Positions 20,106 through 37,757 of a DNA stretch of 64,000 nt are shown one piece after another. The position numbers and the translations under genes were made by a program. Below the pieces are notes generated by a model. That model did no database searches. It was not told the DNA's origin and saw nothing but the letters and a program-made list of their open reading frames with translations. Each line of letters starts with the position of its first letter. Position 1 is the first letter of the stretch. The stretch comes from a virus: IMG/VR virus record IMGVR_UViG_3300020185_000011. One strand, written 5' to 3'.

Positions 20106-20306
20106 ATGGGTATTAAAGTCGAAGGACAATCCAATCTTTATAGAGACGAAAGTTCTCATGCTATTATAAATACAGATGTAGAACAGTATAGATTACATAT
20201 GGTTAGGAAACAACGGTTTCTAGCACAAAGGAACGAGATAGACACACTTAAGAGTGAAGTATCAGAAATGAAAAGTATGCTTCAACAATTATTGGATAGG
20301 ACGTAA
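20106..20306 (+). CDS. Small conserved T4-like hypothetical protein (coiled coil)
   Basis: KVEG..NLYRDESS.AIINTD plus C-terminal coiled coil; ATG at 20106 follows the VrlC stop. Confidence 0.7.
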   Translation: MGIKVEGQSNLYRDESSHAIINTDVEQYRLHMVRKQRFLAQRNEIDTLKSEVSEMKSMLQQLLDRT

Positions 20307-21916
20307 TGGCAAAAACAGTAGACACATACTCAACTATTGAAGAGTTTAGACAAAAGTACAATGAACTAGCAGTTAATGTTGGTGATATCTCTGGCCTAAG
20401 AACAGAGAATCAAGAAACAGTTATTGATGCTCTGAATAGTTTAGAAGATAAATCATTCTTCTTCCAAGAGTTAATCTACACATGTACCAGTGGACAAACA
20501 GAATTTGGTTTGGGTACATCAATGCAAGTTGATGATTTTAACAACACACTTAGATTAAGAAAGGATAGATTCCAAGTATTCAAAAATTCTACTCTATTAT
20601 TAGAGGGTGCTGATTATTCTATATCTGCTGTTACTGGAAACATTTATTTCAAACTATCTCTAACAAGTGGTGCAACAGCAGGTGATAAACTTGTTGTCTA
20701 CTCATTCACAGGTTCATACTTAGGAACATCTACAATTGGTGCTCAATCAATTGGGTTCTTTACAGAGACAGCTGCAAATACAATTTATAATAACAACGAT
20801 AGTGGTGTTATTATCAATGGTAATTATGCAGATGCAGCCAACAGGGTAACAGCTCTTAGTGGTGGAAACACAATTGCAATGTATGGTCAAACTTTGCATG
20901 ATGGAAACTTTACAGTAGACACTGGACATACAATCACTGCACCAACCTTTACCGATTCAACAGCAACGATTACAGGCGGTGTGGGTACAGGTTTTAGTGC
21001 TATCACCTCAACAATATTTAACGGTAACCTAAGTGGTACGACTGCAGTTCTAACTTCAACAGTTCAAGCTGGTGGAGACATTACTTCATCTACAGACATA
21101 ATTGCTGGAAGTGAATTCGTAATCGGAAGTGCAAGAATAGATGAAACAGATTTAGAAAAAATCGATGACCTAACAAACGGAACTGTAATTGCTAGTAAAG
21201 CAGTTGCAGTAGATTCAAATAAAGATATTGGTGGATTCAGAAACATTACTGCAACAGCAGATATTACTGCTGGTAGTGAATTCATAATCGGAAGTGCAAG
21301 AGTAAATGAGACTGAACTAGAGATACTAGACGGTGCAACTTTAACCACTACAGAGATTAACTATCTTGACGGAACTACACTAGGAAGTGTTACTGCTAGT
21401 AACGTAGTTGCAGTTGATTCATCAAAAGATATCAGTGGATTTAGAAACATTACTGCAACTGGAGAGATAGAAGGTGGTTCACTTGATATCAACGGAAATG
21501 CAGACATTAGTGGTACCGTTTCCTTTGGTGGGGATGTTGACATTGATGGTGACTTAACATTCAATGGTACAACTTTCCAAGAATACGCACAAGACAGAGT
21601 TAAAGGATTACTAGACCACAATGGTCACTCAAACATAACTGCATCATATGAAGATTCAAATGATAAAATTATTCTTACTGCAGCTCCTCAATATGGGGAT
21701 AATGATGTTGCAGACTTAACAGTTGGCGGTACAGGTATTACCGAAACATACACTGGAGATGGAAACAGTTTGACATTCTCTACAGACCCAGGCGATGGAT
21801 TGAAAAATTCAGGCAGTGGAGTATCAGACAAAATTATGTTGGATTATGAAATAGTGTCAAACGCACCCACTTCCGTAGGGAGTACCGATGTTGGACACTT
21901 ATGGTTTGTGATATGA
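20306..21916 (+). CDS. Fibre/structural protein 1 (candidate carrier of zipper pair A/B)
   Basis: T.EEFRQKYN N-terminus, duplicated internal unit (..VAVDS.KDI.GFRNITAT..), ends APTSVGSTDVGHLWFVI. Confidence 0.6.
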   Translation: MAKTVDTYSTIEEFRQKYNELAVNVGDISGLRTENQETVIDALNSLEDKSFFFQELIYTCTSGQTEFGLGTSMQVDDFNNTLRLRKDRFQVFKNSTLLLEGADYSISAVTGNIYFKLSLTSGATAGDKLVVYSFTGSYLGTSTIGAQSIGFFTETAANTIYNNNDSGVIINGNYADAANRVTALSGGNTIAMYGQTLHDGNFTVDTGHTITAPTFTDSTATITGGVGTGFSAITSTIFNGNLSGTTAVLTSTVQAGGDITSSTDIIAGSEFVIGSARIDETDLEKIDDLTNGTVIASKAVAVDSNKDIGGFRNITATADITAGSEFIIGSARVNETELEILDGATLTTTEINYLDGTTLGSVTASNVVAVDSSKDISGFRNITATGEIEGGSLDINGNADISGTVSFGGDVDIDGDLTFNGTTFQEYAQDRVKGLLDHNGHSNITASYEDSNDKIILTAAPQYGDNDVADLTVGGTGITETYTGDGNSLTFSTDPGDGLKNSGSGVSDKIMLDYEIVSNAPTSVGSTDVGHLWFVI

Positions 21917-21917
21917 T

Positions 21918-23636
21918 ATGTCTGAAGAAACTTTTGTAAATATAGCAACGGAGATACAGCAACCTTACATTGCTCGTGTTCCTGTAAATGCTCAACAACC
22001 AAACATTAGACAGGTTGCTGTACAGTCACCAGCACAAGCACGTCAACCATCAACATACCAATACAGGTCTCCATTCATATACAATACTCCTGTAAGCGCA
22101 CAGCAACCTAACGTTAGGGATGCACGTCAACCTTTCACTTATACAAGACAAGGTCAGACCCCAACAACTTATCAGCATAGAAGTCCATTCACATATGCAA
22201 GACAAGGTCAACAACCAGCAATATATCAACATCAACAACCATACCCATATATTGCAGTAGCACAACAACCAAATGGTAGGGATGCACAACAACCTTATCC
22301 ATATATTGCACAAGCAAGACAGCCTGGATTCTATCAGCACCCTAGTCCATTTACATATCAAAATCCTGTAAATGCACAAGAACCAAATATTAGAGATGCA
22401 CAGCAACCGTATCCATACATTGCAGCTGGACAACAACCTACTATTAAGAATCAACAAGAACCTAATATACGTAATAGTCAAACACCATTCACATATAGAA
22501 ACCCAGTGAATGCACAAGAACCTAATATTAGAGATGCAAGACAGCCTGCTACATATCAGCATCAGTCTCCACTTACTTACAACTTTAGGTCTCCATTCAC
22601 GTATCAACATAGGTCACCATTCACATATAGAAATCCTGTAAGCGCACAAGAACCTAATATTAGAAACGCAAGACAGCCTGCTGAATATCAGCATCAGTCT
22701 CCATTCACTTATCAGAATCCTAGTAATGGTCAAGAGCCTAATATACGTAATAGTCAGACACCATTCACATATCAGAATCCAGTGAATGGACAACAACCTA
22801 ATATTAGAAGTGCCCAGCAACCGTATCCATACATTGCAAATTCACAAACACCATTTACGTATCAATATAGAAGTCCATTCACATATGCAAGGCAAGGACG
22901 AACACCATTTACTTATGCTGTGCAAACACCAGCAAATACATCTTCACAACAACCTTTGATTGCTCAGAGACCTTACATATTTGATGGTATCGATGGGGAT
23001 GATTCGAATCCAGCACCAACTACAACTTGGGGCCCAGGCGCTCAAGCTCAATATACTGTGGGTTCTCCTGCTTTTCCAATCTCTACAAATAGAGCATGGG
23101 ATAAGGCTGTTAGTTCTTTCGGTACTACGGCTAATAGTGCTACAGCATTTTTTAGATTCACTTATGGTGGAACAACATCAGCTGATGTTGATGTAGAATG
23201 GGCGGGAACTTTCCAACCAGCCACCAAGTTCTTCCCTGTATACGAAGATACTATAAACCATCATTCCCCAAGTGGAATTGACAGTACGTGGTCATGGGAA
23301 GCAAAATGGAATTCTACTGGAGACTCCAACTTGAACGAGCTGGGTATCAGTTTTGCTCCTCATCAATGGAGCACTTCTACAGGTAGTTACAAAGCAAAAG
23401 ATACATATTATAATATATGGAATGGGTCTTCTACGTCAAATTTGGTAGAATTCAAATGGAGAGCATCTGTGGGTAATCAGGGCGAATCAGAAGCATCGGT
23501 ACAGAGTACAGGTGTCGTATTTACCGTAAAAGTATCCAAGACAGGACAAACATCATTATACACTAGTTATAGTGCTGGGACAGTTAGACCAAGCGCATTC
23601 AACACTGGTGGCGGTGGTGGTGGAGGCTTCCAGTAA
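21918..23636 (+). CDS. Repeat protein A: Pro-punctuated 6/8/10-aa units plus ~220-aa C-terminal globular domain
   Basis: 44 units over aa 16-351; non-repetitive W/S/T-rich C-terminus ending GGGGGGFQ. Confidence 0.85.
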   Translation: MSEETFVNIATEIQQPYIARVPVNAQQPNIRQVAVQSPAQARQPSTYQYRSPFIYNTPVSAQQPNVRDARQPFTYTRQGQTPTTYQHRSPFTYARQGQQPAIYQHQQPYPYIAVAQQPNGRDAQQPYPYIAQARQPGFYQHPSPFTYQNPVNAQEPNIRDAQQPYPYIAAGQQPTIKNQQEPNIRNSQTPFTYRNPVNAQEPNIRDARQPATYQHQSPLTYNFRSPFTYQHRSPFTYRNPVSAQEPNIRNARQPAEYQHQSPFTYQNPSNGQEPNIRNSQTPFTYQNPVNGQQPNIRSAQQPYPYIANSQTPFTYQYRSPFTYARQGRTPFTYAVQTPANTSSQQPLIAQRPYIFDGIDGDDSNPAPTTTWGPGAQAQYTVGSPAFPISTNRAWDKAVSSFGTTANSATAFFRFTYGGTTSADVDVEWAGTFQPATKFFPVYEDTINHHSPSGIDSTWSWEAKWNSTGDSNLNELGISFAPHQWSTSTGSYKAKDTYYNIWNGSSTSNLVEFKWRASVGNQGESEASVQSTGVVFTVKVSKTGQTSLYTSYSAGTVRPSAFNTGGGGGGGFQ

Positions 23637-24661
23637 TGGCAACAGGACAACAACCATACGCATATCGTAACCCTATAATTGTAGGATATAGGATGCCTTC
23701 TATTGAGAACGCACAACAACCGTATCCATACATTGCAAATGCACAACAACCAAACATAAGGGATGCAAGACAGCCAGGAACATATGCAAGACAAGGGCAA
23801 ACGCCTTTTACTTATCAGCACCAGTCTCCATTCACTTACAGGAATCCTAGTAATGCACGTCAACCTGCTACATATCAGCATCAGTCTCCATTCACTTACA
23901 GAAACCCTGTAAATGGTCAAGAACCTAATATACGTAATAGTCAGACACCATTTACTTACAACTTTAGGTCTCCATTCACATATAGAAGTCCAGTGAATGC
24001 TCAAGAACCTAATATTAGAAACATACAACAACCTAATATTAGAAATCAGCAAGAGCCTAATATACGTAACAGTCAGACACCATTTACTTACAACTTTAGG
24101 TCTCCATCCACTTACAGGAATCCTAGTAATGCAAGGCAACCAGCGACTTATCAACATAGGTCACCACTTACATATAACCATAGGTCACCGTTTACCTATG
24201 CAAGACAGGCAATAAGACAAGTATCATATCAGCATCAATCACCGTATACGTATCGTAATCCTTCTAATGCACAAACAAATGTTGTTAAGGAAAGTCAGAC
24301 TCCATTCACATATGCTAGACAAGGTCAAACACCGTTTACGTATCAATATAGAAGTCCATTCACATATCAGAGAACAGGACGAACACCAGTGAATGCCAAT
24401 ACGGATATACAATATCCTTATATTGCAAGTGGTCAAGAGCCTAACATTAGAAACAGACAATTACCGTATCCATATATTGCAGCGGGTCAGACACCGTTTA
24501 CATATCAGCATAGGTCACCTTTCACTTATCAGAATCCAGTGCAAGGTCAAGAGCCTAATATTAGAAATTCACAAACACCGTTCTTCTATAATGCTGGTAG
24601 TCAAGTATCATATCAACACAGAAGTCCGTTCACATATCAAGTCACTTACAATACTACTAGG
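21963..24661 (+). repeat. Coding repeat arrays of A (21963-22970) and B (23654-24661)
   Basis: 18/24/30-nt units encoding PFTY.., PNIR.., PYPYIA.. and PVxAQE. Confidence 0.9.
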
Positions 24662-24805
24662 GTCATACCTAGATATGCAAGGGTCAAAGGTGTGTTCATA
24701 AATGACAATGGAACTTTAAGGAAATTAGACGAAGTTCACGTAAATGACAACGGAACGGCAAGAAAAATACACCAATCTGTACCAACTGCTCAGTATCAAA
24801 CTTAA
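23636..24805 (+). CDS. Repeat protein B (mirror partner of A)
   Basis: TAATG coupling to A; ~44 units over aa 7-342; C-terminal VKGVFINDNG..K..VHVNDNG..K segment. Confidence 0.85.
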   Translation: MATGQQPYAYRNPIIVGYRMPSIENAQQPYPYIANAQQPNIRDARQPGTYARQGQTPFTYQHQSPFTYRNPSNARQPATYQHQSPFTYRNPVNGQEPNIRNSQTPFTYNFRSPFTYRSPVNAQEPNIRNIQQPNIRNQQEPNIRNSQTPFTYNFRSPSTYRNPSNARQPATYQHRSPLTYNHRSPFTYARQAIRQVSYQHQSPYTYRNPSNAQTNVVKESQTPFTYARQGQTPFTYQYRSPFTYQRTGRTPVNANTDIQYPYIASGQEPNIRNRQLPYPYIAAGQTPFTYQHRSPFTYQNPVQGQEPNIRNSQTPFFYNAGSQVSYQHRSPFTYQVTYNTTRVIPRYARVKGVFINDNGTLRKLDEVHVNDNGTARKIHQSVPTAQYQT

Positions 24806-24823
24806 AAAGGTATAAATAGTTAC

Positions 24824-25153
24824 ATGGCTATTCTTGCAAACATATTCATCGACCAACATACAGACTTCAGTATTACTGTAGATGTAACCGATGCAACTGG
24901 AAATGTTCTTAACTTAACAGGTTATACTGCAGCTGCACAAATGAGAAAGACTTATACTTCCTCAAGTGCAAGTGCAACATTTACAACATCAATATCAGCA
25001 TCCGATGGTAAGGTAACATTATCATTAACTGATACACAAAGCGGAGCATTGGAGCCAGGTCGTTATGTATATGATATGACTGTAACTAGTGGTTCAACAA
25101 CTACTAGAGTAATAGAAGGACAGGCCATCGTAACCCCAAGTGTAACGAGGTGA
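24824..25153 (+). CDS. Small virion protein (BppU/baseplate-upper-like Ig fold)
   Basis: NLTGYTAAAQMRK, GRYVYDM, RVIEG...VTP.VTR. Confidence 0.6.
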   Translation: MAILANIFIDQHTDFSITVDVTDATGNVLNLTGYTAAAQMRKTYTSSSASATFTTSISASDGKVTLSLTDTQSGALEPGRYVYDMTVTSGSTTTRVIEGQAIVTPSVTR

Positions 25154-25157
25154 TAAT

Positions 25158-25403
25158 ATGGCGATTAGAGGAACATTAAGTAGAGTTGTAACCGTTGGTG
25201 GTAAAGTCACTGGTGGTGGAAACATCAAAGCAACACAGGTTGCTATGGGTGGAACTTCGGCATCTTCTACAGACATCACTGCAAAATCTATCAATGAACT
25301 TGCAGACGTAAACGCATCTGAAACAGACGATGGATTATTGTCTTATGATGCAACTTCAGACAAATGGACAACGACTACCGTACTAGACGGTGGAACGTTT
25401 TAA
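25158..25403 (+). CDS. Small fibre-associated protein ending LDGGTF
   Basis: GAGG RBS; L.DV....DG.L.YD....KW motif. Confidence 0.6.
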   Translation: MAIRGTLSRVVTVGGKVTGGGNIKATQVAMGGTSASSTDITAKSINELADVNASETDDGLLSYDATSDKWTTTTVLDGGTF

Positions 25404-25551
25404 TTGTCTAAATACTAGTACAAATCAAGGTTGTCGACAGTGAGGCAACGACCCACATTGTGAGTGGACAGACTACATTATGAACTCAACTTTTCTCGGG
25501 ATAGTGAACGAGAGACATAAACTAATTAATTTTATTTAAAGGAAAATAAAA

Positions 25552-27165
25552 ATGGCAACAGTAATTCAGATTAAAAGAAGTACAGGTGTATCTGCACCAG
25601 CTATCTCCGACCTTTCGGAAGGTGAATTAGCGTACGTACAGGATAGGTCGAATTCAGGCGCCGGAGCAAAACTTTACATTGAATCCGTAGATTCTGATAA
25701 CAGTACTCCTTTAATACAAGCCATCGGTGGTAAGTATTACACGGATATGTTAGCAGGTTCAACTGCAACACCATCTAACTTCAAAGTTGGTAACGGTGCT
25801 TCAGCAGGTGCAAGTGTTCAGTTAATGGAAGACAGTGATAATGGAACGAACTTCGTTGCATTAAAAGCTGCTGACACATTAGGTGCTTCGACAACCTTTA
25901 CTCTACCTACAGCGGATGGTTCTGCTAACCAAGTCATCGGTACAGATGGCAGTGGTAACTTATCATTCTTATCAACAACATCAACACTAGCAGGTGCAAC
26001 GGATTCAGATATTTCTGCTCCAGCAGCAGGACACGTTCTTGTTCATGACGGAAGTGATTCATTCGACAACGTAGCATTAAGTGGTGACGTAACATTAGCA
26101 TCTAGTGGTGCAGTAACAATCGGAAACGATAAAGTTACAACTGCTAAGATTCTAGACAGTAATGTAACAGTAGGAAAAATCGACTTCTTAGTAGACGAAG
26201 ACAATATGGCTTCTGACTCTGCAGTCAAAGTTCCTTCTCAGCAATCTGTAAAAGCATATGTAGATTCACAAGTAACAGCACAGGACTTAGACCTTGCTGG
26301 TGATAGTGGAACTGGTGCAGTCGACTTAGACTCTCAGTCAATCACATTTACTGGTGGAACTGGTGTAACAACTTCTGTATCGGGTCAAGCAGCGACTTTC
26401 GCTATTGGTCAGGCAGTTGCAACAACATCTAACGTAACTTTCAACAACGTAGACGTTGATGGAACACTTACATCGGATGACATCACATCTACAAATATCA
26501 GTGTTGCAGGTAATGCTACTATTACTGGAAACTTAACAGTTCAAGGCACAACAACAACTGTAGACTCAACAACAGTATCAATTGCAGACCCAGTGTTTGA
26601 AATTGGTTCAGATAGTTCAGATGATAATCTAGACCGTGGTATTAAATTCAAATATAACGATGGAGCTGCTAAACTTGGTTTCTTCGGTATGGACGAAAAT
26701 ACTCAGAAATTTACTGCATTAAAAGCTGCAACAGATAGTTCATCTGTATTCAGTGGAACAGCAATGGACGCAGTATTCGGTGGATTAGAAGCAACTGGTC
26801 TTGCATTAAGTGGTTCAATTACTTCATTAGACGGTGCAGCTCCAACAGCTGGACAGTTGATGGTTGGTAATGGTTCTAATGGAGACATGGAACTTGCAAC
26901 TCTAACTGCTGGTGAAGGTATTGACGTAACTAATGCAGATGGTGCTATCACTATTGCATCAGAAGTTGGTACAGGTTCTAACCTTGGTGTCGTTATCGTT
27001 GCAGCTGGAGAAGGGATGGATGCATCATACTCTGGCGGAACAGTAACAGTCGCTGGTGAAGATGCAACAACATCTAACAAAGGTATCGCAAGTTTTGCTT
27101 CTGCAAACTTCACGGTAACTTCGGGTGCAGTTACAGTCACTGGTATTGACGGCGGAACATTTTAA
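25552..27165 (+). CDS. Tail-fibre-like protein
   Basis: IQIKRS...AP....L.EGELA N-terminal domain; G/S/T-rich fibre motifs; ends IDGGTF. Confidence 0.7.
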   Translation: MATVIQIKRSTGVSAPAISDLSEGELAYVQDRSNSGAGAKLYIESVDSDNSTPLIQAIGGKYYTDMLAGSTATPSNFKVGNGASAGASVQLMEDSDNGTNFVALKAADTLGASTTFTLPTADGSANQVIGTDGSGNLSFLSTTSTLAGATDSDISAPAAGHVLVHDGSDSFDNVALSGDVTLASSGAVTIGNDKVTTAKILDSNVTVGKIDFLVDEDNMASDSAVKVPSQQSVKAYVDSQVTAQDLDLAGDSGTGAVDLDSQSITFTGGTGVTTSVSGQAATFAIGQAVATTSNVTFNNVDVDGTLTSDDITSTNISVAGNATITGNLTVQGTTTTVDSTTVSIADPVFEIGSDSSDDNLDRGIKFKYNDGAAKLGFFGMDENTQKFTALKAATDSSSVFSGTAMDAVFGGLEATGLALSGSITSLDGAAPTAGQLMVGNGSNGDMELATLTAGEGIDVTNADGAITIASEVGTGSNLGVVIVAAGEGMDASYSGGTVTVAGEDATTSNKGIASFASANFTVTSGAVTVTGIDGGTF

Positions 27166-27203
27166 TTAATATTTCACTAATCAATCAATACTAGGAGAGT
27201 AAC

Positions 27204-28031
27204 ATGGCAACAGTTATTAATTTTAAAAGAAGTTCGACTCAGAATGCAGTCCCGACTACTGGTGATTTATCACTAGGTGAAGTCGCGATTAATACCTATC
27301 ATGGTAGAATGTATACTGAAAAGAACGATGGGTCAGCAGCGATTACTGAAATCGGTTCTAACCCTAAAACTCTTTCTGTTAATGATGCCTACTCCTTTCC
27401 TACTAGTGACGGAACTTCAGGCCAAGTACTACAAACAGATGGTTCAGGCGCACTATCATTCACTTCTCAAGCATCAAGTGGAGTTGTAACGTTTACCTAC
27501 ACAATTGGTTCAACAACGACTGTTATCACAGGTAATGATGATAACAGTAATACGTTGCTCTATACAGCAGGTACGGAACAAGTTTATTTGAATGGTGTTA
27601 AGTTAATCGATGGCGGTGTCGACTACGCTGCAACAAATAGTAGTACTATCACACTAGAAGCAAATGCTTTAAGTGGAGATGTGCTAGAAGTAGTAGCAAT
27701 TACAGAAGCAGCTAACCTTGTACAAGGTTATTATACTGCATCTGTTTTAACTGCGACCACAGCAGACCAAGTATTATCTTCAAATGCAGTTGCAATTAAG
27801 GGCATCAAGTATGTAATTAATGCAACTCATGCTTCGGCAGGGACACATGCATGTGAAGTTTTACTTATTAATAACGGCTCGAATGCATACTTCGTACAAT
27901 ACGGAGATGTGTATTCAACAGCAAGTTTGTTCACATTGAGTGCAGATGTTGATTCGGGGAATATGAGATTACTCGTAACTCCAACCAACACTAACACTAC
28001 AATTGATACATTCCAAATTAGACATTCTTAA
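27204..28031 (+). CDS. Fibre-like structural protein
   Basis: Paralogous KRS..P....L..GE.A.N N-terminus; PTSDGTSGQVLQTDGSG; C-terminal domain shared with the next two genes. Confidence 0.65.
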   Translation: MATVINFKRSSTQNAVPTTGDLSLGEVAINTYHGRMYTEKNDGSAAITEIGSNPKTLSVNDAYSFPTSDGTSGQVLQTDGSGALSFTSQASSGVVTFTYTIGSTTTVITGNDDNSNTLLYTAGTEQVYLNGVKLIDGGVDYAATNSSTITLEANALSGDVLEVVAITEAANLVQGYYTASVLTATTADQVLSSNAVAIKGIKYVINATHASAGTHACEVLLINNGSNAYFVQYGDVYSTASLFTLSADVDSGNMRLLVTPTNTNTTIDTFQIRHS

Positions 28032-28044
28032 GGGGGATTGAACT

Positions 28045-28458
28045 ATGGCTAAATCTAATGCATTTAAAATAGCAGAATTAATCCGTGTCTTACAGTATAA
28101 TACATCTACAGATGAGATTAGTACGACTAAACCTATGAGCGATAAGAATACCACACGTAGTGATGCCACTACGACTGCAACTACCCAAATTAATTTGGAT
28201 ACGTTTGCCCATGCAACTCATAGAGCTGCAAGGTATGTGGTTGCAATGTCTTCGGCGGGAGAGTTTCATTCAACTGAAATCATGTTAGTTCATGATGGAA
28301 GTGATGTGACACTAACTCAATACGGCACGTTAAAAAGTGGTTCTGCTTTGGCAACATTTGATGCTGACATTAGTGGTGATGACCTCAGATTGAGAATCAC
28401 ACCTGCTAGTGCCACTTCAACCGTTACTAAATTTATTAGGACAACAGTAGACGCATAG
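28045..28458 (+). CDS. Structural protein (shared QYG-containing domain)
   Basis: RAARYVV..GEFHSTEIMLVHDG..TQYG..LATFDADI..LRLR. Confidence 0.6.
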   Translation: MAKSNAFKIAELIRVLQYNTSTDEISTTKPMSDKNTTRSDATTTATTQINLDTFAHATHRAARYVVAMSSAGEFHSTEIMLVHDGSDVTLTQYGTLKSGSALATFDADISGDDLRLRITPASATSTVTKFIRTTVDA

Positions 28459-28477
28459 ACAAAGATTAAAATCTTTT

Positions 28478-28505
28478 AAGGGGAACTTCGGTTCCCCTTT
28501 TTTTT
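28478..28505 (+). terminator. Rho-independent terminator with cUUCGg loop
   Basis: GGGGAAC-TTCG-GTTCCCC followed by T8. Confidence 0.85.
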
Positions 28506-28520
28506 GCTATAAATAGTACT

Positions 28521-29354
28521 ATGGCAACTCAATCCAAATTTTTTGCAGACGTAGGCATCCAAACATCGGGAGATACATCTATTGGTGGAAATCTCGTAGT
28601 CACTGGTGACCTAACTGTAAATGGAACTAACACAGTCATAGATTCTACAACTCAATCGGTTACAGATTCATTGATAGAACTTGCAAGTGGTAACACCACT
28701 GCAGATACAGTAGACATAGGAATCTATGGTAACTATAATGATGGTTTAAGTGGAGAAGGGGGTGCAAGTGAATATACAGGTCTATTCAGAGATGCTTCAG
28801 ATTCAACATGGAAATTATTTGATGGTTTAGAAGTTGAACCCACATCTACTGTTAATTTAAGTGGAAGTGGTTATGCATTAGCAGACTTACATGTTGGTGA
28901 CTTAGTTGCAACAACATTGACTGCAACAAATAGTTTAACAGGTGCAAGTATCAACTATCCAACCTCGGATGGTACTTCGGGTCAAGTACTTACTACAAAT
29001 GGTAGTGGTACATTAACATTTCAATCAGCAGCTGGTTTAGATGGTGGTACACTTACCACAACATCTACAAGTGAAACAAGTATGGATACATTCTCTACTA
29101 CTGCATATAGAAGTGCAAAGTATGAAGTATCTATTTCAGATGCAACAAGTGGAGTATATCAATTTACAGAATTAGCAATTGTTCATAATGGAACAACTGC
29201 AAGTGTGTCTCAGTACGGTACAGTTCTTACAGGGAATTCAGAACTTGCAACATTTGGTGTAGATATCAATATAGGAACTCTAAGAATTAGAGCAACTTCT
29301 GCTTCTACAAACTCAACCGTCTATAAATTTAAAAAGATTTTAGTAGATGTATAA
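28521..29354 (+). CDS. Fibre-like structural protein
   Basis: GNLVVTGDLTVNG, YTGLFRDASD..WKLF, shared C-terminal QYG domain. Confidence 0.65.
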   Translation: MATQSKFFADVGIQTSGDTSIGGNLVVTGDLTVNGTNTVIDSTTQSVTDSLIELASGNTTADTVDIGIYGNYNDGLSGEGGASEYTGLFRDASDSTWKLFDGLEVEPTSTVNLSGSGYALADLHVGDLVATTLTATNSLTGASINYPTSDGTSGQVLTTNGSGTLTFQSAAGLDGGTLTTTSTSETSMDTFSTTAYRSAKYEVSISDATSGVYQFTELAIVHNGTTASVSQYGTVLTGNSELATFGVDINIGTLRIRATSASTNSTVYKFKKILVDV

Positions 29355-29431
29355 AATACGTTACTTATGAGTGGGCAGAATCGATAAATAAATGTATCAC
29401 CCCTCGAGGTAAACCCTAAAAGGACACATAT

Positions 29432-29650
29432 ATGGCAACACAAAATACATTCGTAATAGAATACGGTCTGACAGTTGGGTCGACAGAGATTATTTCCTCA
29501 GCAGGAAAATTAGCTGCGACTGCAATATCATTACTTACTTCAGATAACCTCACAGAAGGTTCAACTAATCAATACTTTACTTCAAGTAGATTTAACTCTT
29601 CATTCGATACTAGATTATCAAATGCAGTTATTGATGGGGGTACTATCTAA
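29432..29650 (+). CDS. Small fibre-associated protein ending IDGGTI
   Basis: AGGA RBS; D.L.EGSTN.YFT motif; paralogous to the N-terminus of the next gene. Confidence 0.6.
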   Translation: MATQNTFVIEYGLTVGSTEIISSAGKLAATAISLLTSDNLTEGSTNQYFTSSRFNSSFDTRLSNAVIDGGTI

Positions 29651-31977
29651 TGGCAGGTGAAAAGAATTTTATACTTAAGAACGGTCTATCCGTAGGAACA
29701 AACGATGTTCTAGATAGTTCGGGTGACTTAGTAGCAGCTGCATTCGGAACTGCAGCTCTAGAGGTCATCGATGACCAAGTCAATACCTTACTAACAGCAG
29801 GAACAGGTGTATCATTATCATATGACGACTCTGCTGGAACACTTACAATCAACGGACAACAAGGTGATATCACTGGAGTTAATGCTGGTGCTGGTTTAAC
29901 TGGTACTGCAAGTTCGGGTGATGCAACATTAAACATCGGTGCTGGTACAGGTATTACTGTAAATGCAGATGACATTGCAATCGACCTTAAAGACGAAGAC
30001 GATATGTCTTCGAACAGTGCATCTCACGCTGCATCACAACAATCAATTAAAGCTTATGTTGATGCAAGTATTCTAACAAAAGACAACACAGACGAAATCA
30101 CAGAAGGGTCAAGTAACCTTTACTTTACAGATGCAAGAGCAAGAGCTGCTCTATCAGCAACTGGTGATATATCATACAATAGTTCAACTGGTGTATTCAG
30201 TTTCACAAACGATGCTGGTGACATCGAATCAGTAGTTGCTGGTTCGGGTTTAACTGGTGGTGCAACAAGTGGAGCTGCAACATTAAACATTGGTGGTGGA
30301 ACAGGTATCTCAGTAGCTGCAGATGCAATCTCAGTAAACATGGGTGCATTTGATTCAGATGACTTAGGTGAAGGGACAACCAATCTCTATCATACTTCAG
30401 AAAGAGTTCAAGATGTAGTTGGTGCTCAATTAGCAACTAACGGTTCACACACTGGTCTTACAGCAACTTACGATGATGCTGGTGACGGTGCAGTTGACCT
30501 TGCAGTATCTTCAGAGTATATTGCAGATACAGTTGGTGCAATGGTATCATCAAATACAGAAAGTGGTATTACAGTTGCTTACCAAGATGCAGATAACACT
30601 TTAGACTTTACAATTGGAACACTTAACCAAGATACAACAGGATTAGCAGGAACTGCTACTGCACTTGCAAATGCAAGAACTATCTCGGGTGTTTCCTTTG
30701 ACGGTACAGCAAACATCACACTAAACACTAGTGGAATTACAGAAAATACAAACCTTTACTATACAAACGAAAGAGTAGATGACAGAGTTGGTGCATTAAT
30801 TGTTGGTGGTACAAACATCACTGCAACCTATGATGATGCAGCTGGAACACTTACAATTGACGGAAACGCAGCGGACATCACAGGTGTTACAGCAGGTGAC
30901 GGTCTAAGTGGTGGTGGTTCAACTGGTGCAGTTACCTTAAACCTAGACGCATCAGTCGCTGGTGACGGTCTTGCACATTCAAGTGGTGTTCTGTCAGTCG
31001 GAGTAGACGATAGTTCAATCGAAACAAATACAGATGCATTAAGAGTCAAAGCACTTGGTATTACTAATGCCATGTTAGCAGGTTCTATTGCAAACGCAAA
31101 ATTATCAAACAGCACAATAACAGTTGATGGTCAATCAGTTGCATTGGGTGGTTCGGTCACAACAACTAACACTCAACTATCTACAGAACAAGTAGAAGAC
31201 ATCGTAAATGGATTAGTAGTTGGTGGAACAAACATCACTTCTACATATGATGATGCAGCTGGAACACTTACACTTGCTGGTTCATCAGATGCAGATATCA
31301 GAGGTTTATTATCTGCTGGTGGAGATTTATCATACAACAGTGGAACTGGTGCATTCTCATTCACAGAGAGAACAGATGCAGAAGTAAGAGGTCTAGTATC
31401 AGTAACAGACAGTGGTGGAGATGGTTCACTTTCATATAATAGTTCAACTGGTGCAATAACTTACACAGGGCCAAGTGCATCTGAGACAAGAGCTCATTTA
31501 AGTGCTGGAACTGGTGTATCATATAGTGGTGGTGCATTCAGTATTGGTCAGGCAGTTGCAACTTCAAGTAACGTAACGTTTGGAAACTTAACATTAAGTG
31601 GTAACCTAACAGTTAATGGTGCCACTTCAACAGTAAGTTCAACTAACACAACCATCGAAGATTCTTTGATTGAGTTAGGAACAGGGACAACTGGTGCTCC
31701 AGCTGGAGACGCAGGTATTGTCATTGAAAGAGGTGATGAAAGTAACGTGTTTATGGGTTGGGACGACAGTGCATCAAGTTTTGCATTCGGAACAACTACT
31801 GCAACAGGTTCTTCAACTGGTGCTTTATCAGTAACACCAGCAGCGGTATCTACAGGTGCATTAACAATAACGAATGCATCTAACAGTGGTGGAACTGCAA
31901 GAAATGTTTACCAATCAACTTCTGCACCTGGCGGTTCAGATGGAGCGGTTGGTGATATGTGGATTCTTTACTCCTAA
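29650..31977 (+). CDS. Tail-fibre-like protein 2 (candidate carrier of zipper pair C/D)
   Basis: Repeated TYDDAAGTLT, EGSSNLYFT..R and ISYNSSTG units; ends APGGSDGAVGDMWILYS. Confidence 0.7.
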   Translation: MAGEKNFILKNGLSVGTNDVLDSSGDLVAAAFGTAALEVIDDQVNTLLTAGTGVSLSYDDSAGTLTINGQQGDITGVNAGAGLTGTASSGDATLNIGAGTGITVNADDIAIDLKDEDDMSSNSASHAASQQSIKAYVDASILTKDNTDEITEGSSNLYFTDARARAALSATGDISYNSSTGVFSFTNDAGDIESVVAGSGLTGGATSGAATLNIGGGTGISVAADAISVNMGAFDSDDLGEGTTNLYHTSERVQDVVGAQLATNGSHTGLTATYDDAGDGAVDLAVSSEYIADTVGAMVSSNTESGITVAYQDADNTLDFTIGTLNQDTTGLAGTATALANARTISGVSFDGTANITLNTSGITENTNLYYTNERVDDRVGALIVGGTNITATYDDAAGTLTIDGNAADITGVTAGDGLSGGGSTGAVTLNLDASVAGDGLAHSSGVLSVGVDDSSIETNTDALRVKALGITNAMLAGSIANAKLSNSTITVDGQSVALGGSVTTTNTQLSTEQVEDIVNGLVVGGTNITSTYDDAAGTLTLAGSSDADIRGLLSAGGDLSYNSGTGAFSFTERTDAEVRGLVSVTDSGGDGSLSYNSSTGAITYTGPSASETRAHLSAGTGVSYSGGAFSIGQAVATSSNVTFGNLTLSGNLTVNGATSTVSSTNTTIEDSLIELGTGTTGAPAGDAGIVIERGDESNVFMGWDDSASSFAFGTTTATGSSTGALSVTPAAVSTGALTITNASNSGGTARNVYQSTSAPGGSDGAVGDMWILYS

Positions 31978-32028
31978 TCTAGGAGTTTAGAATTCTAATA
32001 AATAACAGTATTATTAATGGATAATTAA

Positions 32029-33459
32029 ATGGCAACAGGTTCACAAAAGGTCAAAACACCAGCAGGTTGGAATTCAACCCAAGGTGCATGGGTAAAGACA
32101 GGTTCTTCCACATGGAAAGCAGTCGACCAAATCTATATTAAAACCCCTACTGGATGGAACAATGCATCAGGGCAGACTGCAACTCAAATTCCATATCCGT
32201 ACATTGCAAATGGACAACAGCCAAACATAAGGGATGCTCAACAACCATATCCATACATTGCAAATGCACAACAACCAAACATAAGAGATGCACAGCAACC
32301 GTATCCATATATTGCTAATGCACAAGAACCAAACATAAGGGATGCACAGCAACCATATCCTTATATAGCGAATGCAAGACAACCTTCTACGTACCAACAT
32401 AGGAGTCCGTTTACATATGCAAGACAGGGACAAACACCGTTCACTTATCAACATAGGTCTCCATTTACATATAGAAACCCAGTAAATGGTCAAGAACCTA
32501 ATATACGTAATAGTCAAACACCTTTCACTTATAGAAATCCAGTGAATGGACAAGAGCCTAATATTAGAGATGCACGTCAACCTTCTACGTATCAGCATAG
32601 AAGTCCATTTACGTACAATCATAGGTCACCATTTACGTACAGTCATAGGTCTCCATTCACATATAGAAGTCCAGTGAATGCTCAAGAACCGAACATTAGA
32701 GATGCAAGACAACCTGCTACGTATCAACATAGGTCACCGTTAACATATAGTCATAGGTCTCCGTTTACATATCAGCACAGGTCTCCATTTACATATAGAA
32801 GTCCTGTAAGCGCACAGGAACCTAATATTAGAAATGCACGTCAACCTGCTACGTATCAGCACAGGTCACCTTTAACATATAGTCACAGGTCACCATTCAC
32901 GTATCAACATAGGTCACCATTTACATATAGAAGTCCTGTATCTGCTCAAGAACCTAATATACGTAATGCAAGACAACCTTCTACGTATCAACATAGAAGT
33001 CCGTTAACATATAGTCATAGGTCACCATATACATACAGTCATAGGTCTCCGTTCACTTACAGAAACCCTGTATCTGCTCAACAACCTAATATACGTTCGG
33101 CACAACAACCTAATATACGTTCGGCACAACAACCGTTTACGTTCCAAAATCCGTTTACTTATCGACAACCAAGTAATGCTAGACAACCGAATAATGCAAG
33201 GAACCCATTTACGTATAGAGTACCGTATATTGCAAATGCTAGACAACCGAATAGTGCAAGGAACCCATTCACTTATAGAGTACCTTACATTGCTAATGCA
33301 AGACAACCGAATAGTGCAAGAAGCCCATTCACTTATAGAGTACCTTACATTGCTAATGCAAGGCAACCTGTTATTTCTCAGTCACCGTTTACATATAGTC
33401 ATAGGTCACCATTCAACTACTACTTTACTGGGGGTGGTGGCAACTTCTGTGAGCCATAA
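32029..33459 (+). CDS. Repeat protein C
   Basis: N-terminal VKT..GW..WVKTG..WK..IYIKT..GW segment; 55 Pro-started units over aa 55-460; ends GGGGNFCEP. Confidence 0.85.
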   Translation: MATGSQKVKTPAGWNSTQGAWVKTGSSTWKAVDQIYIKTPTGWNNASGQTATQIPYPYIANGQQPNIRDAQQPYPYIANAQQPNIRDAQQPYPYIANAQEPNIRDAQQPYPYIANARQPSTYQHRSPFTYARQGQTPFTYQHRSPFTYRNPVNGQEPNIRNSQTPFTYRNPVNGQEPNIRDARQPSTYQHRSPFTYNHRSPFTYSHRSPFTYRSPVNAQEPNIRDARQPATYQHRSPLTYSHRSPFTYQHRSPFTYRSPVSAQEPNIRNARQPATYQHRSPLTYSHRSPFTYQHRSPFTYRSPVSAQEPNIRNARQPSTYQHRSPLTYSHRSPYTYSHRSPFTYRNPVSAQQPNIRSAQQPNIRSAQQPFTFQNPFTYRQPSNARQPNNARNPFTYRVPYIANARQPNSARNPFTYRVPYIANARQPNSARSPFTYRVPYIANARQPVISQSPFTYSHRSPFNYYFTGGGGNFCEP

Positions 33460-34752
33460 GCCGATGAAAAACATGACAAGAAATAATATTAAACTAACAG
33501 GAGTTTTAAAGTGCCTATAGGTAATAGACAACAACCTACTATTAAGAACGCACAGCAACCTGTCGCGTCTCAGAATCCGTTCACATATGCAAACAGATAT
33601 CCAGCGAGTGCTCAACAACCTTTTACGTTCCAAGCACCATTTACATATAGTGCAAGATATCCAGCGAGTGCTCAACAACCTTTTACGTTCCAAGCACCAT
33701 TTACATATAGTGCAAGATATCCAGCGAATGGACAGCAACCGTTTACGTTTCAGAATCCGTTTACTTACAGACACCCTATGTCTGCGAGACAACCTAACAA
33801 CGCAAGGAATCCATTTACATACAGTTATAGGTCTCCATTTACGTACAACTATAGGTCACCATTTACATATAGAAGTCCTGTAAATGGTCAAGAACCTAAT
33901 ATACGTTCTGCACAAGAGCCTAATATTAGAAGTCAACAAGAACCTAATATACGTTCTGCACAGACTCCGTTCACTTATCAATATAGAAGTCCGTTCACTT
34001 ATAGAAACCCTGTATCTGCTCAAGAACCTAATATTAGAAACATACAGCAACCTAACATTAGAAGTCAGCAAGAACCTAATATACGTAATAGTCAAACACC
34101 GTTCACTTATCAGCACAGGTCTCCTTTCACTTATAGGAACCCTGTATCTGCACAAGAACCGAACATTAGAGCTGCACAACAACCTAATATTAGAAGTCAA
34201 CAAGAACCTAATATTAGAAACAGTCAAACACCGTTTACGTACAATCACAGGTCTCCATCTACATATAGGAACCCTGTATCTGCTCAAGAACCTAATATAC
34301 GTTCTGCTCAAGAACCTAATATACGTTCTGCACAAGAGCCTAACATTAGGGATGCTCAGACTCCGTTCACTTATCAATATAGAAGTCCGTTCACTTATCA
34401 GAATCCTAGTAATGCACGTCAACCTGCTACATATCAGTACAGGTCACCGTTCACTTATCAGAATCCAGTAAGCGCACAGGAACCTAATATTAGAAATGCA
34501 CAGCAACCGTATCCATACATTGCAGCTGCTCAAGAACCTAATATACGTAATGCACAGACTCCGTTTACTTATCAGAGAACAGGTCAAACACCGTTCACTT
34601 ATCAGCACAGGTCTCCATTCACGTATGCAAGACAGGGTCAAACACCGTTTACGTATCAACATAGAAGTCCGTTCACATATCAAAGAACAGGTCAAACACC
34701 GTTTACGTATCAACACAGAAGTCCATTCACATATGCAAGACAGGGTCAAACC
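32191..34752 (+). repeat. Coding repeat arrays of C (32191-33408) and D (33535-34752)
   Basis: Same unit alphabet; each array is 1218 nt; includes an exact 60-nt tandem at 33601-33720. Confidence 0.9.
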
Positions 34753-34815
34753 CCCGAAGCAAGATGGGATGGAGTGGTATCACAACAGTGGCCTGCAACC
34801 CCAATTACATCATAG
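33511..34815 (+). CDS. Repeat protein D (mirror partner of C)
   Basis: AGGAG RBS with GTG start; 55 units over aa 9-414. Confidence 0.85.
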   Translation: MPIGNRQQPTIKNAQQPVASQNPFTYANRYPASAQQPFTFQAPFTYSARYPASAQQPFTFQAPFTYSARYPANGQQPFTFQNPFTYRHPMSARQPNNARNPFTYSYRSPFTYNYRSPFTYRSPVNGQEPNIRSAQEPNIRSQQEPNIRSAQTPFTYQYRSPFTYRNPVSAQEPNIRNIQQPNIRSQQEPNIRNSQTPFTYQHRSPFTYRNPVSAQEPNIRAAQQPNIRSQQEPNIRNSQTPFTYNHRSPSTYRNPVSAQEPNIRSAQEPNIRSAQEPNIRDAQTPFTYQYRSPFTYQNPSNARQPATYQYRSPFTYQNPVSAQEPNIRNAQQPYPYIAAAQEPNIRNAQTPFTYQRTGQTPFTYQHRSPFTYARQGQTPFTYQHRSPFTYQRTGQTPFTYQHRSPFTYARQGQTPEARWDGVVSQQWPATPITS

Positions 34816-34835
34816 GAACTTACCCGACAGTGAAC

Positions 34836-34862
34836 AAACCCCTCGAAAGAGGGGTTTTTTTT
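34836..34862 (+). terminator. Rho-independent terminator after repeat protein D
   Basis: AAACCCCTC-GAAA-GAGGGGTTT followed by a T tract. Confidence 0.85.
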
Positions 34863-34879
34863 ATCCTCTAAATACCAGT

Positions 34880-37052: not shown

Positions 37053-37757
37053 ATGTTCGAAAATGTTGAGTTAGAGTTCATCAAGGAACCCTTTCATATC
37101 AAAGATATGCCTTTGAAAAATATGTATATCCTTGATGACTATCTATCTCCAACATTACATCATGCAATAGACGAACAGATAGTTCGAAAGTCTTACTGGG
37201 CAAAGACCAACCAAGTGAATTCAAACTCACCTACAGGATTACCGCACCATAGTTTTTGGGGTGCTGGGTTTTTCAGAGGAGAGAATCAAGAAATAGAACA
37301 CGGTATGGAACCTAAAGACACATACTTAATGGGATGGTTCAATAGAAAGCTACAAACTGATTTTGGTTTTATGTGGGAAAGGTTTCAATACTTTGGATTG
37401 AACTCACAAACTCAAGGATTGGAAGGAACCACACATTCAGATTGTGATATGGAAGATGATTGGAATCTATCATTCTTATATTATCCAAATAGATTTTGGA
37501 ATGATTCATGGGGTGGGTCTTTACGATTGTATGATGAACCACAACAAGGAATCCATGGAAGAGCAGACCACATTAAAAATCATCAAACACAAGAAATATA
37601 TTTTAAACCAAATAGATTGTTGATATTTGACGGAAGAATACCACATGGTGCAGATGCACCATCTCCAAAGGCACGATATATGGATAGACGTTCTTTGGTA
37701 ATAAGAGGAGACGAAATTAGTATAAGAACTTTATGGGGTGAAGATGCCTACGATTGA
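37053..37757 (+). CDS. 2OG-Fe(II) oxygenase (prolyl-hydroxylase-like)
   Basis: HSD ... LYYPN..W...WGG.L ... KPNRLLIFDGRIPH...P.....R.SL. Confidence 0.85.
   Translation: MFENVELEFIKEPFHIKDMPLKNMYILDDYLSPTLHHAIDEQIVRKSYWAKTNQVNSNSPTGLPHHSFWGAGFFRGENQEIEHGMEPKDTYLMGWFNRKLQTDFGFMWERFQYFGLNSQTQGLEGTTHSDCDMEDDWNLSFLYYPNRFWNDSWGGSLRLYDEPQQGIHGRADHIKNHQTQEIYFKPNRLLIFDGRIPHGADAPSPKARYMDRRSLVIRGDEISIRTLWGEDAYD

What the first reader, a model, noticed from the sequence alone, without database searches (positions are those of the whole stretch)
21963..34752. Residue-level pairing rules can be read off the mirror alignment
Seen: all five PLTY units (three in C, one in A, one in B) face the only five units ending QQE, so F->L is accompanied by small->Q. 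This fixes the register at i+j = unit length. In that register F mostly faces A/G/S, Y faces R/V/A, H faces N and Pro faces Q/R, including the internal Pro of PYPY facing Q in ARQG. At unit junctions all 18 QEP triplets in C/D face an RSP, and core RQP triplets face QTP. Inference: knob-into-hole, cation-pi and R/E salt-bridge cross-strand pairs. All spacings are even, matching beta-strand alternation. The code could serve as a programmable protein hybridisation alphabet.
Basis: partly seen in the sequence, partly recalled or inferred. Interest (0 to 1): 0.85.

Follow-up and report, generated by a model that had tools for sequence, protein, structure and literature searches.

The report
Pairing code of mirrored fibre proteins
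Two pairs of neighbouring phage tail-fibre genes encode proline-punctuated repeat proteins that are exact mirror-image complements of each other, and changes in about 47 related phages show that the two chains line up head-to-tail with residue-by-residue pairing rules, a fibre design not described before.

Summary
The counts in the window are exact: 5/5 PLTY units face the five QQE units, 18/18 QEP face RSP in C/D, F faces A 56/79, H faces N 29/34, and Pro faces Q/R 197/206.

The mirror itself is far beyond chance. C against reversed D gives 56 coincident Pro, against a maximum of 31 in 2000 unit-order shuffles. It is not encoded as a DNA inverted repeat.

The mirror holds in 47 distinct related pairs from IMG/VR, whose D-type chains range from 253 to 562 aa. 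Length changes are compensated: a 44-aa block and a 2-aa unit change are each matched in the partner gene.

Across the family, covariation sits only on two same-parity antidiagonals. It is the only register with side-chain volume anticorrelation, and recent double substitutions there are compensatory (L>F with Q>A, S>F with N>A, H>Y with N>T).

Some relatives fuse the A and B chains into one ORF with mirrored arms.

Best reading: an antiparallel, in-register beta-type zipper. No structure could be predicted, the P-on-P register is not excluded, and E faces S rather than R.

The scan's earlier notes are all on this same genome.

The parts
21918..23636 (+). Gene A (572 aa). Repeat arm is aa 16-395 (nt 21963-23102), followed by a ~170-aa non-repeat C-terminal domain ending in a Gly run.
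   Evidence: no Pfam or PHROG family
23636..24805 (+). Gene B (389 aa). Repeat arm is aa 7-345 (nt 23654-24670), followed by a small C-terminal beta-like domain (VKGVFIN...KIHQSVP). Its ATG overlaps A's stop (TAATG), which suggests translational coupling.
   Evidence: mirror with A: 39 coincident Pro, z = 10
32029..33459 (+). Gene C (476 aa). Conserved N-terminal domain (aa 1-54, KTPxGW motifs), repeat arm aa 55-462 (nt 32191-33414), tail GGGGNFCEP.
33511..34815 (+). Gene D (434 aa, GTG start behind AGGAG). Repeat arm is aa 2-415 (nt 33514-34755), followed by a conserved C-terminal tail (PEARWDG..QQWPATPITS).
   Evidence: mirror with C: 56 of 60 Pro coincide, z = 11
33460..33510 (+). C-D spacer of 51 nt, in the same frame as both genes, with three TAA codons and the ribosome-binding site of D. 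In the antiparallel model this is where the two chain ends meet (the distal tip).
32737..33024 (+). The three PLTYSHRS units of C (nt 32737-32760, 32869-32892, 33001-33024), 44 aa apart.
33919..34206 (+). The three PNIRSQQE units of D (nt 33919-33942, 34051-34074, 34183-34206), 44 aa apart. They face the three PLTY units of C.
22569..22592 (+). PLTYNFRS unit of A. It faces PNIRNQQE of B (nt 24032-24055).
24164..24187 (+). PLTYNHRS unit of B. It faces PTIKNQQE of A (nt 22437-22460).

Best explanation
A/B and C/D are two heteromeric fibre modules in the tail-fibre (host-recognition) region of a T4-like marine myophage.

In each module the two gene products lie antiparallel and in register over about 340 residues (A/B) or about 410 residues (C/D). 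Every Pro-delimited unit of 6, 8 or 10 residues faces a unit of the same length but of the complementary type:
- the aromatic P-x-T-Y units face P-N-I-R-x-x-Q-x when they are 8 residues long;
- they face P-V/S-x-A-Q-E when 6 long;
- they face P-Y-P-Y-I-A-x-x-Q-x when 10 long.

The backbone is most likely an extended beta ladder, because all spacings are even and couplings occur only between same-parity positions. The directly facing residues most likely obey i+j = unit length. Under that register:
- Pro faces the penultimate R or Q;
- position 2 (F/L/S/A/G/D) faces position L-2 (A,G / Q / A,N / S,Y / S / R);
- position 6 (H,Y / A,N,S) faces position 2 (N / Y);
- the last residues face each other (E-S, Q-T, Q-S, N-N/S).

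The aperiodic order of unit lengths acts as a barcode. It sets one register and keeps the two pairs of one virion apart.

Shown here: the mirror, its conservation, compensated indels, the parity and position of covariation, size compensation, and natural single-chain fusions.

Inferred: beta conformation, direct contact, which end is distal, and any higher oligomer (for example three heterodimers in a six-stranded needle). If the arms are fully extended at about 3.3 A per residue, they would span roughly 110-135 nm.
For: 1. Mirror in the window: z = 11 (C/D) and z = 10 (A/B) against unit-order shuffles, and always above the best parallel alignment.

2. Conservation. 78 IMG/VR loci carry the genes as adjacent pairs. 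Of 47 distinct C/D-type pairs, whose D-type chains range from 253 to 562 aa, 39 place at least 79% of all D-type prolines (36 at least 80%) on one ungapped antiparallel diagonal.

3. Compensated length changes. The relative G001/L009 has one more 44-aa block in C and one more in D. A 6>8-residue unit in its C is mirrored by a 6>8 unit in its D.

4. The units are complementary, not identical. xTY units face NIR, PVxAQE or PYPYIA units in about 2000 unit pairs, and xTY8 never faces xTY8. There is no inverted DNA repeat between C and D.

5. Covariation. The contingency tables show F-A 736, F-G 132, L-Q 64/74, D-R 7/8, N-Y 100/100, A-Y 77/88, H-N 355 and E-S 358/371.

6. Side-chain volumes anticorrelate only at offset -2 (r = -0.23). 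At offset 0 the correlation is +0.12.

7. Double substitutions between close relatives peak at offsets -2 (54) and 0 (50), against a background of about 16-30. At -2 they are compensatory in at least six comparisons.

8. Rosetta-stone fusions. In L043, L056, L059, L077, L078, L080 and at least 30 database proteins, one ORF has an A-like N-terminus and a B-like C-terminus. Its two arms mirror each other about the middle of the chain.

9. The termini that would lie together (N-terminus of C, C-terminus of D) are the most conserved parts. The opposite ends are variable and carry different tip domains.

10. Non-cognate combinations in the window match only 23-26 Pro, against 39 for A/B and 56 for C/D.
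Against: - There is no structural evidence of any kind. The repeats have no PDB, Pfam or PHROG relative.
- Covariation counts are over unique unit pairs that share ancestry and concerted evolution, so the large counts overstate the number of independent events.
- Offset 0 (Pro facing Pro) carries nearly as much mutual information as offset -2. For the 10-residue units it carries slightly more.
- The co-substitution profile has an unexplained value of 47 at offset +1.
- Eleven of the 47 pairs fall below 80%; nine of them are visibly split by one whole-unit indel of 8 or 18 aa. L015 is out by 88 aa, and L017 by 44 aa on ORF lengths alone. These may be assembly collapses or real unpaired loops.
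- A bare two-stranded ribbon over 100 nm long is physically unusual, so the true assembly is probably a higher oligomer that these data cannot see.
Confidence: 0.7

Rival explanations
1. Same antiparallel zipper, but the directly facing residues are Pro on Pro (i+j = L+2). The couplings at the reader's register would then be the diagonal neighbours of a twisted beta ladder.
For: Offset 0 has the second-highest mutual information (0.168 bits). It exceeds offset -2 for position 2 of the 10-residue units: 0.69 against 0.57, and a conditional MI of 0.40 against 0.28. Co-substitutions number 50 at offset 0 and 54 at -2. Both registers keep Pro at the same class of ladder site.
Against: Side-chain volume correlation is positive at offset 0 (+0.12) and negative only at -2. 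The double substitutions at -2 are obvious size or charge swaps (L/Q to F/A, S/N to F/A, D-R, and the junction S>N with N>S in three comparisons), whereas those at 0 are not. L facing E and F facing Q/E make poorer chemical sense.
Confidence: 0.2
2. The two chains do not touch. Both are laid in opposite directions on a third component, for example the large fibre proteins encoded just upstream (20306-21916 and 29650-31977), and the mirrored unit lengths reflect that shared template.
For: Each pair follows a large tail-fibre-like gene. A bare two-stranded ribbon seems too flimsy to stand alone.
Against: A shared template does not predict size-compensating or charge-compensating changes between specific positions of the two chains. 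It does not predict that couplings are limited to same-parity antidiagonals. The upstream proteins have no matching 6/8/10 periodicity. Single-chain fusions of the two arms exist.
Confidence: 0.06
3. The facing rules are a by-product of repeat history (duplication of blocks, concerted evolution, composition) with no structural meaning.
For: The 44-aa super-repeat has a palindromic length pattern (8 8 8 6 6 8). C against its own reverse already matches 41 Pro and D against its own reverse 37. The three C/D facings of PLTY and QQE are copies of one block.
Against: No mutational process produces a protein-level mirror of complementary unit types without a DNA inverted repeat, and none is present. 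The aperiodic ends are mirrored too, and no shuffle of 2000 approaches the observed match. The mirror is maintained through large changes in length across 47 pairs, with compensating indels in separate genes.
Confidence: 0.03

Closest known systems
Needle domain of the phage T4 long-tail-fibre tip (gp37). As I recall it (Bartual et al. 2010, PDB 2XGF), it is a six-stranded antiparallel needle in which each chain of a trimer runs to the tip and folds back. Its iron-binding histidines along the needle are described in PMC6957217.
   Same: Both are components of T4-like myophage fibres. Extended strands run along the fibre axis. There is a fold-back (up-and-down) antiparallel topology, which the single-ORF relatives here would share. 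A variable distal tip sits at the turn.
   Different: There is no sequence relation: no Pfam or PDB hit. There are no HxH motifs. The arms are about 340-410 residues instead of tens. The two arms are usually separate gene products. The repeats are Pro-punctuated units of 6/8/10 residues with a unit-type and residue-level complement. Trimeric state is unknown here.
Tandem beta-zipper binding (bacterial fibronectin-binding repeats adding antiparallel strands to successive fibronectin F1 modules; recalled from the literature, not tested here)
   Same: An extended chain pairs antiparallel with its partner by beta-strand addition. The order of short sequence motifs determines which partner segment is bound.
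   Different: That system pairs a disordered peptide with folded domains of a host protein. Here two repeat chains of the same phage appear to zipper with each other, symmetrically, over their whole length.
Register-specific multi-chain fibrous proteins: heterodimeric coiled coils (knobs-into-holes, e/g salt bridges) and heterotrimeric collagen
   Same: Specific partner choice and register are encoded in a short periodic repeat through size and charge complementarity. Length is tunable by repeat number.
   Different: The periodicity here is 2 residues with Pro-delimited blocks of 6/8/10, not heptads or Gly-X-Y triplets. The chains are antiparallel. The unit-length barcode has no counterpart in those systems.
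Beta-solenoid or triple-beta-helix phage fibres and spikes
   Same: Short strands delimited by turn residues, in phage adhesion organelles.
   Different: A solenoid needs a constant coil length. Here the unit-length string is aperiodic (10 8 10 8 ... 6 6 8 6 6 8 8 8 8 ...) and only pairwise mirrored, which fits a linear ladder and not stacked coils.

Membership tests
T4 gp37-type fibre needle | Sequence homology to gp37 or its trimerisation regions | tested here: not met
   No Pfam-A family for A or B. C and D give only a marginal compositional hit to Cementoin. PDB phmmer finds nothing below E = 0.45. The Atlas feature search lists a gp37_trimer cluster only at rank 9 with score 0.82, which is in the chance range.
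T4 gp37-type fibre needle | HxH metal-binding motifs lining the needle | tested here: not met
   0 HxH motifs in A, B, C and D. There is a single His per aromatic 8-residue unit.
T4 gp37-type fibre needle | Fold-back antiparallel topology within a trimer | not testable with these tools
   Antiparallel pairing is inferred from the mirror and covariation. Single-ORF fusions support a fold-back. Oligomeric state is unknown. Two AlphaFold2 runs gave pLDDT of about 39.
Collagen-like / polyproline-II fibres | Three-residue periodicity (Gly-X-Y) or spacing in multiples of 3 | tested here: not met
   No Gly-X-Y runs. Family-wide Pro-Pro spacings of 12 or less: 5549 even and 290 odd, with 8 the commonest.
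Beta-solenoid repeat proteins | Constant coil length so that equivalent sides stack | tested here: not met
   The unit-length strings are aperiodic outside the 44-aa blocks and match only the reversed partner.
Cementoin (PF10511, trappin transglutaminase-substrate repeats) | Score above the Pfam gathering threshold with a real matched domain | tested here: inconclusive
   D scores 29.5 bits against a cut-off of 27, but no single stretch passes. C scores 21.6 bits, below the cut-off. The match is most likely compositional (Gln/Pro-rich hexapeptides). The repeats contain almost no Lys.
Phage tail-fibre module (functional class, not a homology family) | Location among baseplate and fibre genes of a tailed phage, with conserved synteny | tested here: met
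   Baseplate hub, wedge and sheath PHROGs lie in the window. Neighbouring genes hit tail-fibre PHROGs. The same paired arrangement is found in 78 viral contigs. The region corresponds to the 'host recognition cluster' described for marine T4-like myophages (PMC7029224).

The most novel reading that the evidence does not exclude
These genes encode a natural protein 'duplex'. Two different chains hybridise antiparallel over hundreds of residues. A unit-length barcode sets the register, and a small residue-pair alphabet (F-A/G, L-Q, D-R, H/Y-N, A/N-Y, E-S, Q-T, Pro-R/Q) sets local fit. The result is a new class of fibrous protein whose partner specificity and length evolve by matched repeat gain and loss in two genes, and which could be copied as a designable, orthogonal beta-type hybridisation system.
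Probability: 0.55. Interest if true: 0.92.

Novelty: categorically new. Interest (0 to 1): 0.82.

Why it matters
If the chains pair as the covariation indicates, this is a fibre-building principle not known in nature. Two gene products zipper antiparallel with a readable pairing code. Their lengths co-evolve by compensating repeat changes in separate genes.

Consequences if true:
- It would explain a large, unannotated gene family in abundant marine and freshwater T4-like phages. That family comprises 217 IMG/VR stretches and over 400 database proteins, all hypothetical.
- It would give a handle on how such phages vary fibre length and tip domains for host recognition.
- It would offer protein designers a beta-strand counterpart to heterodimeric coiled coils, with built-in orthogonality, since this one virion carries two non-cross-matching pairs.
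- The rules are directly testable with peptides and co-expression.

Tried and rejected
Structure prediction
- AlphaFold2 without an alignment, on a read-through construct joining the end of C to the start of D (table 6, P0121:330-634), gave mean pLDDT 39. It is unusable.
- AlphaFold2 on the natural single-ORF relative L056:149-1612 with a 34-sequence alignment gave mean pLDDT 39.6. Only the small C-terminal domain reached about 70.
- Complex prediction on C 1-175 and D 290-434 with 44-row alignments returned 'no answer' (ipSAE 0.00, controls not run). This is neither for nor against binding.

Database searches
- Pfam, PHROGs and the PDB sequence search found no family for the repeats.
- The ESM Atlas feature search gave nothing at 0.9 or above, and the Atlas holds no model.
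- Megablast and tblastn against cultured phages gave only a 126-nt fibre match to Methylophilales phage Melnitz, plus two low-identity hits (Pseudomonas phage YA3, Vibrio phage F23s1). Those two lie in early or regulatory regions and look compositional, so I did not pursue them.

Other checks
- A DNA-level explanation was rejected. There are no inverted repeats between C and D, and the facing pairs do not follow codon-anticodon (antisense) relations, by inspection of F-A, Y-R and H-N.
- Full-text searches for the motifs PFTYQHRS, QEPNIR, PYPYIA and EPNIRN returned 0 papers. Keyword searches for antiparallel or two-chain fibres found nothing matching.
- The window's own assembly is not held; the nearest record, G001, was used instead.
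Full report
WHAT IS THERE

The window is the structural region of a T4-like myophage. It holds baseplate hub, wedge, sheath and scaffold PHROGs, has a GC content of about 38%, and has only a 126-nt match to any cultured phage.

After a 2271-aa structural gene comes a fibre-rich stretch. It corresponds to the 'host recognition cluster' described for marine T4-like phages (PMC7029224). In it lie four repeat genes on the + strand: A 21918-23636, B 23636-24805, C 32029-33459 and D 33511-34815.

A's stop overlaps B's start (TAATG). C and D are 51 nt apart, in the same frame, and D starts at a GTG behind AGGAG. None of the four has a Pfam, PHROG or PDB relative for its repeats.

The repeats are units that begin with Pro and are 6, 8 or 10 residues long. 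All Pro-Pro spacings inside them are even.

CHECK OF THE OBSERVATION

The unit-length string of C read forwards equals that of D read backwards over about 55 units. A and B do the same, apart from a few merged units.

Without gaps, 56 of D's 60 prolines coincide with prolines of C in the antiparallel alignment. The best parallel alignment gives 40. Shuffling D's unit order gives a mean of 20.6 and a maximum of 31 in 2000 shuffles (z = 11). A/B gives 39 (z = 10).

- 5/5 PLTY units face the five QQE units.
- 18/18 QEP in C/D face RSP.
- F faces A 56 and G 12 of 79.
- Y faces R, A or V.
- H faces N 29/34.
- Pro faces Q or R 197/206.
- The inner Pro of PYPY faces Q7 of PFTYARQGQT.

Two qualifications apply. 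RQP faces QTP only 6/12 times in C/D (8/8 in A/B). The three C/D cases of PLTY facing QQE are copies of one 44-aa super-repeat, so they are not independent.

IT IS NOT A DNA OR HOMOLOGY ARTEFACT

There is no inverted DNA repeat between C and D.

The facing units are of complementary types, not the same type. Aromatic xTY units face PNIR, PVxAQE or PYPYIA units in about 2000 unit pairs of the family. xTY8 never faces xTY8.

RELATIVES

A scan of IMG/VR found 217 related stretches, and 78 loci were fetched. In nearly all of them the repeat ORFs occur as adjacent pairs with nearly equal unit numbers.

In 71 distinct pairs the best antiparallel match always equals or exceeds the best parallel one; the single tie (12 against 12, L083) is an A/B-type pair. 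Of 47 distinct C/D-type pairs, whose D-type chains range from 253 to 562 aa, 39 put at least 79% of all D prolines (36 at least 80%) on a single ungapped antiparallel diagonal. Most of the rest are split by one whole-unit indel.

The nearest relative (G001/L009) supplies two compensated length changes. It has an extra 44-aa block in C and an extra 44-aa block in D. A 6>8-residue unit in its C is matched by a 6>8 unit at the mirror position in its D. It also has five PLTY units and five QQE units. At the position where the window has PFTY facing ..SAQE, it has PLTY facing ..SQQE.

REGISTER AND PAIRING RULES

I collected unique facing unit pairs, with their flanks, from all pairs and computed shuffle-corrected mutual information between positions within fixed unit-type classes.

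Couplings are concentrated on two antidiagonals of the same parity. Offset 0 (Pro-on-Pro) gives 0.168. Every other offset gives 0.067 or less. This is the pattern expected for an antiparallel beta ladder, in which a side chain meets its direct partner and one diagonal neighbour.

Three things favour -2 as the direct register:
- It has the highest mutual information and the higher conditional mutual information for three of four unit classes.
- Side-chain volumes anticorrelate only there (mean r = -0.23, against +0.12 at offset 0).
- Double substitutions between close relatives at that offset are compensatory. They include L>F with Q>A, F>L with K>Q, S>F with N>A (twice), F>V with A>K, H>Y with N>T (several), H>A with T>Y, and S>N with N>S at the junction in three comparisons. 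Co-substitution counts peak at -2 (54) and 0 (50), over a background of about 16-30.

- Position 2 of an aromatic unit against partner position L-2: F-A 736, F-G 132, L-Q 64/74, S-A/N/R, A-S/Y, G-S, D-R 7/8, R-Y 10/10.
- Position 6 against partner position 2: H-N 355, Y-N 80, A-Y 77/88, N-Y 100/100.
- Last residue against last residue: E-S 358/371, Q-T and Q-S about 300 each, N-N/Q/S.
- Position 4: Y faces A, R or V, whereas F faces N 64/78.
- Pro faces R or Q in 98% of cases.

So 'knob-into-hole' complementarity is supported. A direct R/E pair is not, because E faces S. E does co-occur with Arg in the neighbouring column of the partner: 339/358, against 173/285 when the last residue is Q. In addition, the junctions usually carry exactly one Arg among the two penultimate residues.

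TOPOLOGY

In several relatives the A/B slot is a single ORF of 445-613 aa. It has an A-like N-terminus and a B-like C-terminal domain. In the closest of these proteins, and in L056 unit by unit, the two arms are mirror images about the middle of the chain. That is a Rosetta-stone argument for a fold-back hairpin.

The ends that would lie together (N-terminus of C, C-terminus of D) are the most conserved parts of the family. The opposite ends vary. They are bare, as in the window's C (GGGGNFCEP); or a Hint/intein-like domain follows a Gly run and a Cys; or there is a globular domain of about 170 aa, as in the window's A. I therefore read the conserved end as proximal and the turn end as the distal, host-facing tip. 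This is inference.

SPECIFICITY

Non-cognate combinations in the window match only 23-26 prolines, against 39 for A/B and 56 for C/D. The unit order can therefore keep the two pairs apart.

WHAT COULD NOT BE SHOWN

No structural model was obtained. Two AlphaFold2 runs had pLDDT of about 39, and the complex job gave no verdict.

The oligomeric state, the beta conformation itself and the exact register therefore remain inferences. The counts are inflated by shared ancestry. The number of clearly independent events is of the order of ten double substitutions and several indels.

L015 and L017 have partners that differ by 88 and 44 aa. This may be repeat collapse in short-read assemblies or real mismatches.

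COMPARISON AND NOVELTY

The nearest known idea is the fold-back antiparallel needle of T4 gp37. There is no homology to it, no HxH motif, and the scale and two-gene organisation differ (PMC6957217).

Collagen-like and solenoid readings fail on periodicity. Motif and keyword searches of the paper library found no description of these proteins. All database homologues are unnamed.

I rate it as a new kind of fibre architecture. The caveat is that the claim rests on sequence covariation alone.

Noticed in passing
L025:9989-11959, L026:7421-9532, L048:10001-11614 (C-type genes of relatives); window 33430-33459: In many relatives the C-type protein continues, after the Gly run, with a Hint/intein-like domain of about 150 aa (Gly run then CFAPGS ... 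ending AHN/VHN). Precomputed Pfam hits are PF14890, PF14623, PF01079 and PF05203. The window's C stops right after the equivalent Cys (GGGGNFCEP). A self-cleaving or ligating domain at the point where the two chain ends meet could process or covalently close the tip.
   Followed up: partly
L056:149-1612, L077:2690-4159, L043:2341-3939, L080:2315-4153; proteins P0073, P0043, P0079, P0075: There are natural single-ORF versions of the A/B pair. They have an A-like N-terminus (M.DEIYIN), an irregular middle and a B-like C-terminal domain. Where the ungapped test detects it (the closest proteins, and L056 unit by unit), the two repeat arms mirror each other about the chain centre.
   Followed up: yes
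L039:9998-11815, L040:10001-12205, L061:9998-11362, L071:5532-7166; window 23103-23633: Other C-type relatives, and the window's A, carry a non-repeat C-terminal domain of about 170 aa at the end that would be the fibre tip. This is possibly the receptor-binding part. No family was found for A's domain.
   Followed up: no
L015:8912-12063 and L017:2326-5609: In two contigs the partners differ by 88 aa and 44 aa, which are whole super-repeats, so the mirror breaks. This is either repeat collapse in assembly or natural mismatched pairs with an unpaired loop.
   Followed up: no
window 34496-36460: The listed 654-aa ORF overlaps the end of D in another frame. Its first ~130 residues look like out-of-frame repeat sequence. 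The real gene probably starts near 34883 (MKNISTLEE...). It matches phrog_28018 and, weakly, glycosyltransferase family 8.
   Followed up: partly
window 37053-39370: Downstream genes include a 2OG-Fe(II) oxygenase (38651-39370, phrog_81, E = 7e-36) and two further PHROG matches (phrog_274, phrog_7084). A hydroxylase next to Pro/Asn-rich fibre genes could modify them.
   Followed up: partly
window 22050-22610, 23567-24157, 32167-32622, 33856-34422 (minus strand) and 33884-34471 (+): Long open frames on the opposite strand and in another frame lie inside the repeat genes. These stretches have a strong negative GC skew (-0.16 to -0.20). The frames are most likely open by composition and are not genes.
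   Followed up: no
window 32029-32190 and 34756-34815: The N-terminal domain of C (two KTPxGW hairpin-like motifs) and the Trp-containing C-terminal tail of D (RWDG..QQWP.TP) are nearly invariant across the family. In the antiparallel model they sit at the same end, which makes them a likely joint attachment site to the virion.
   Followed up: partly
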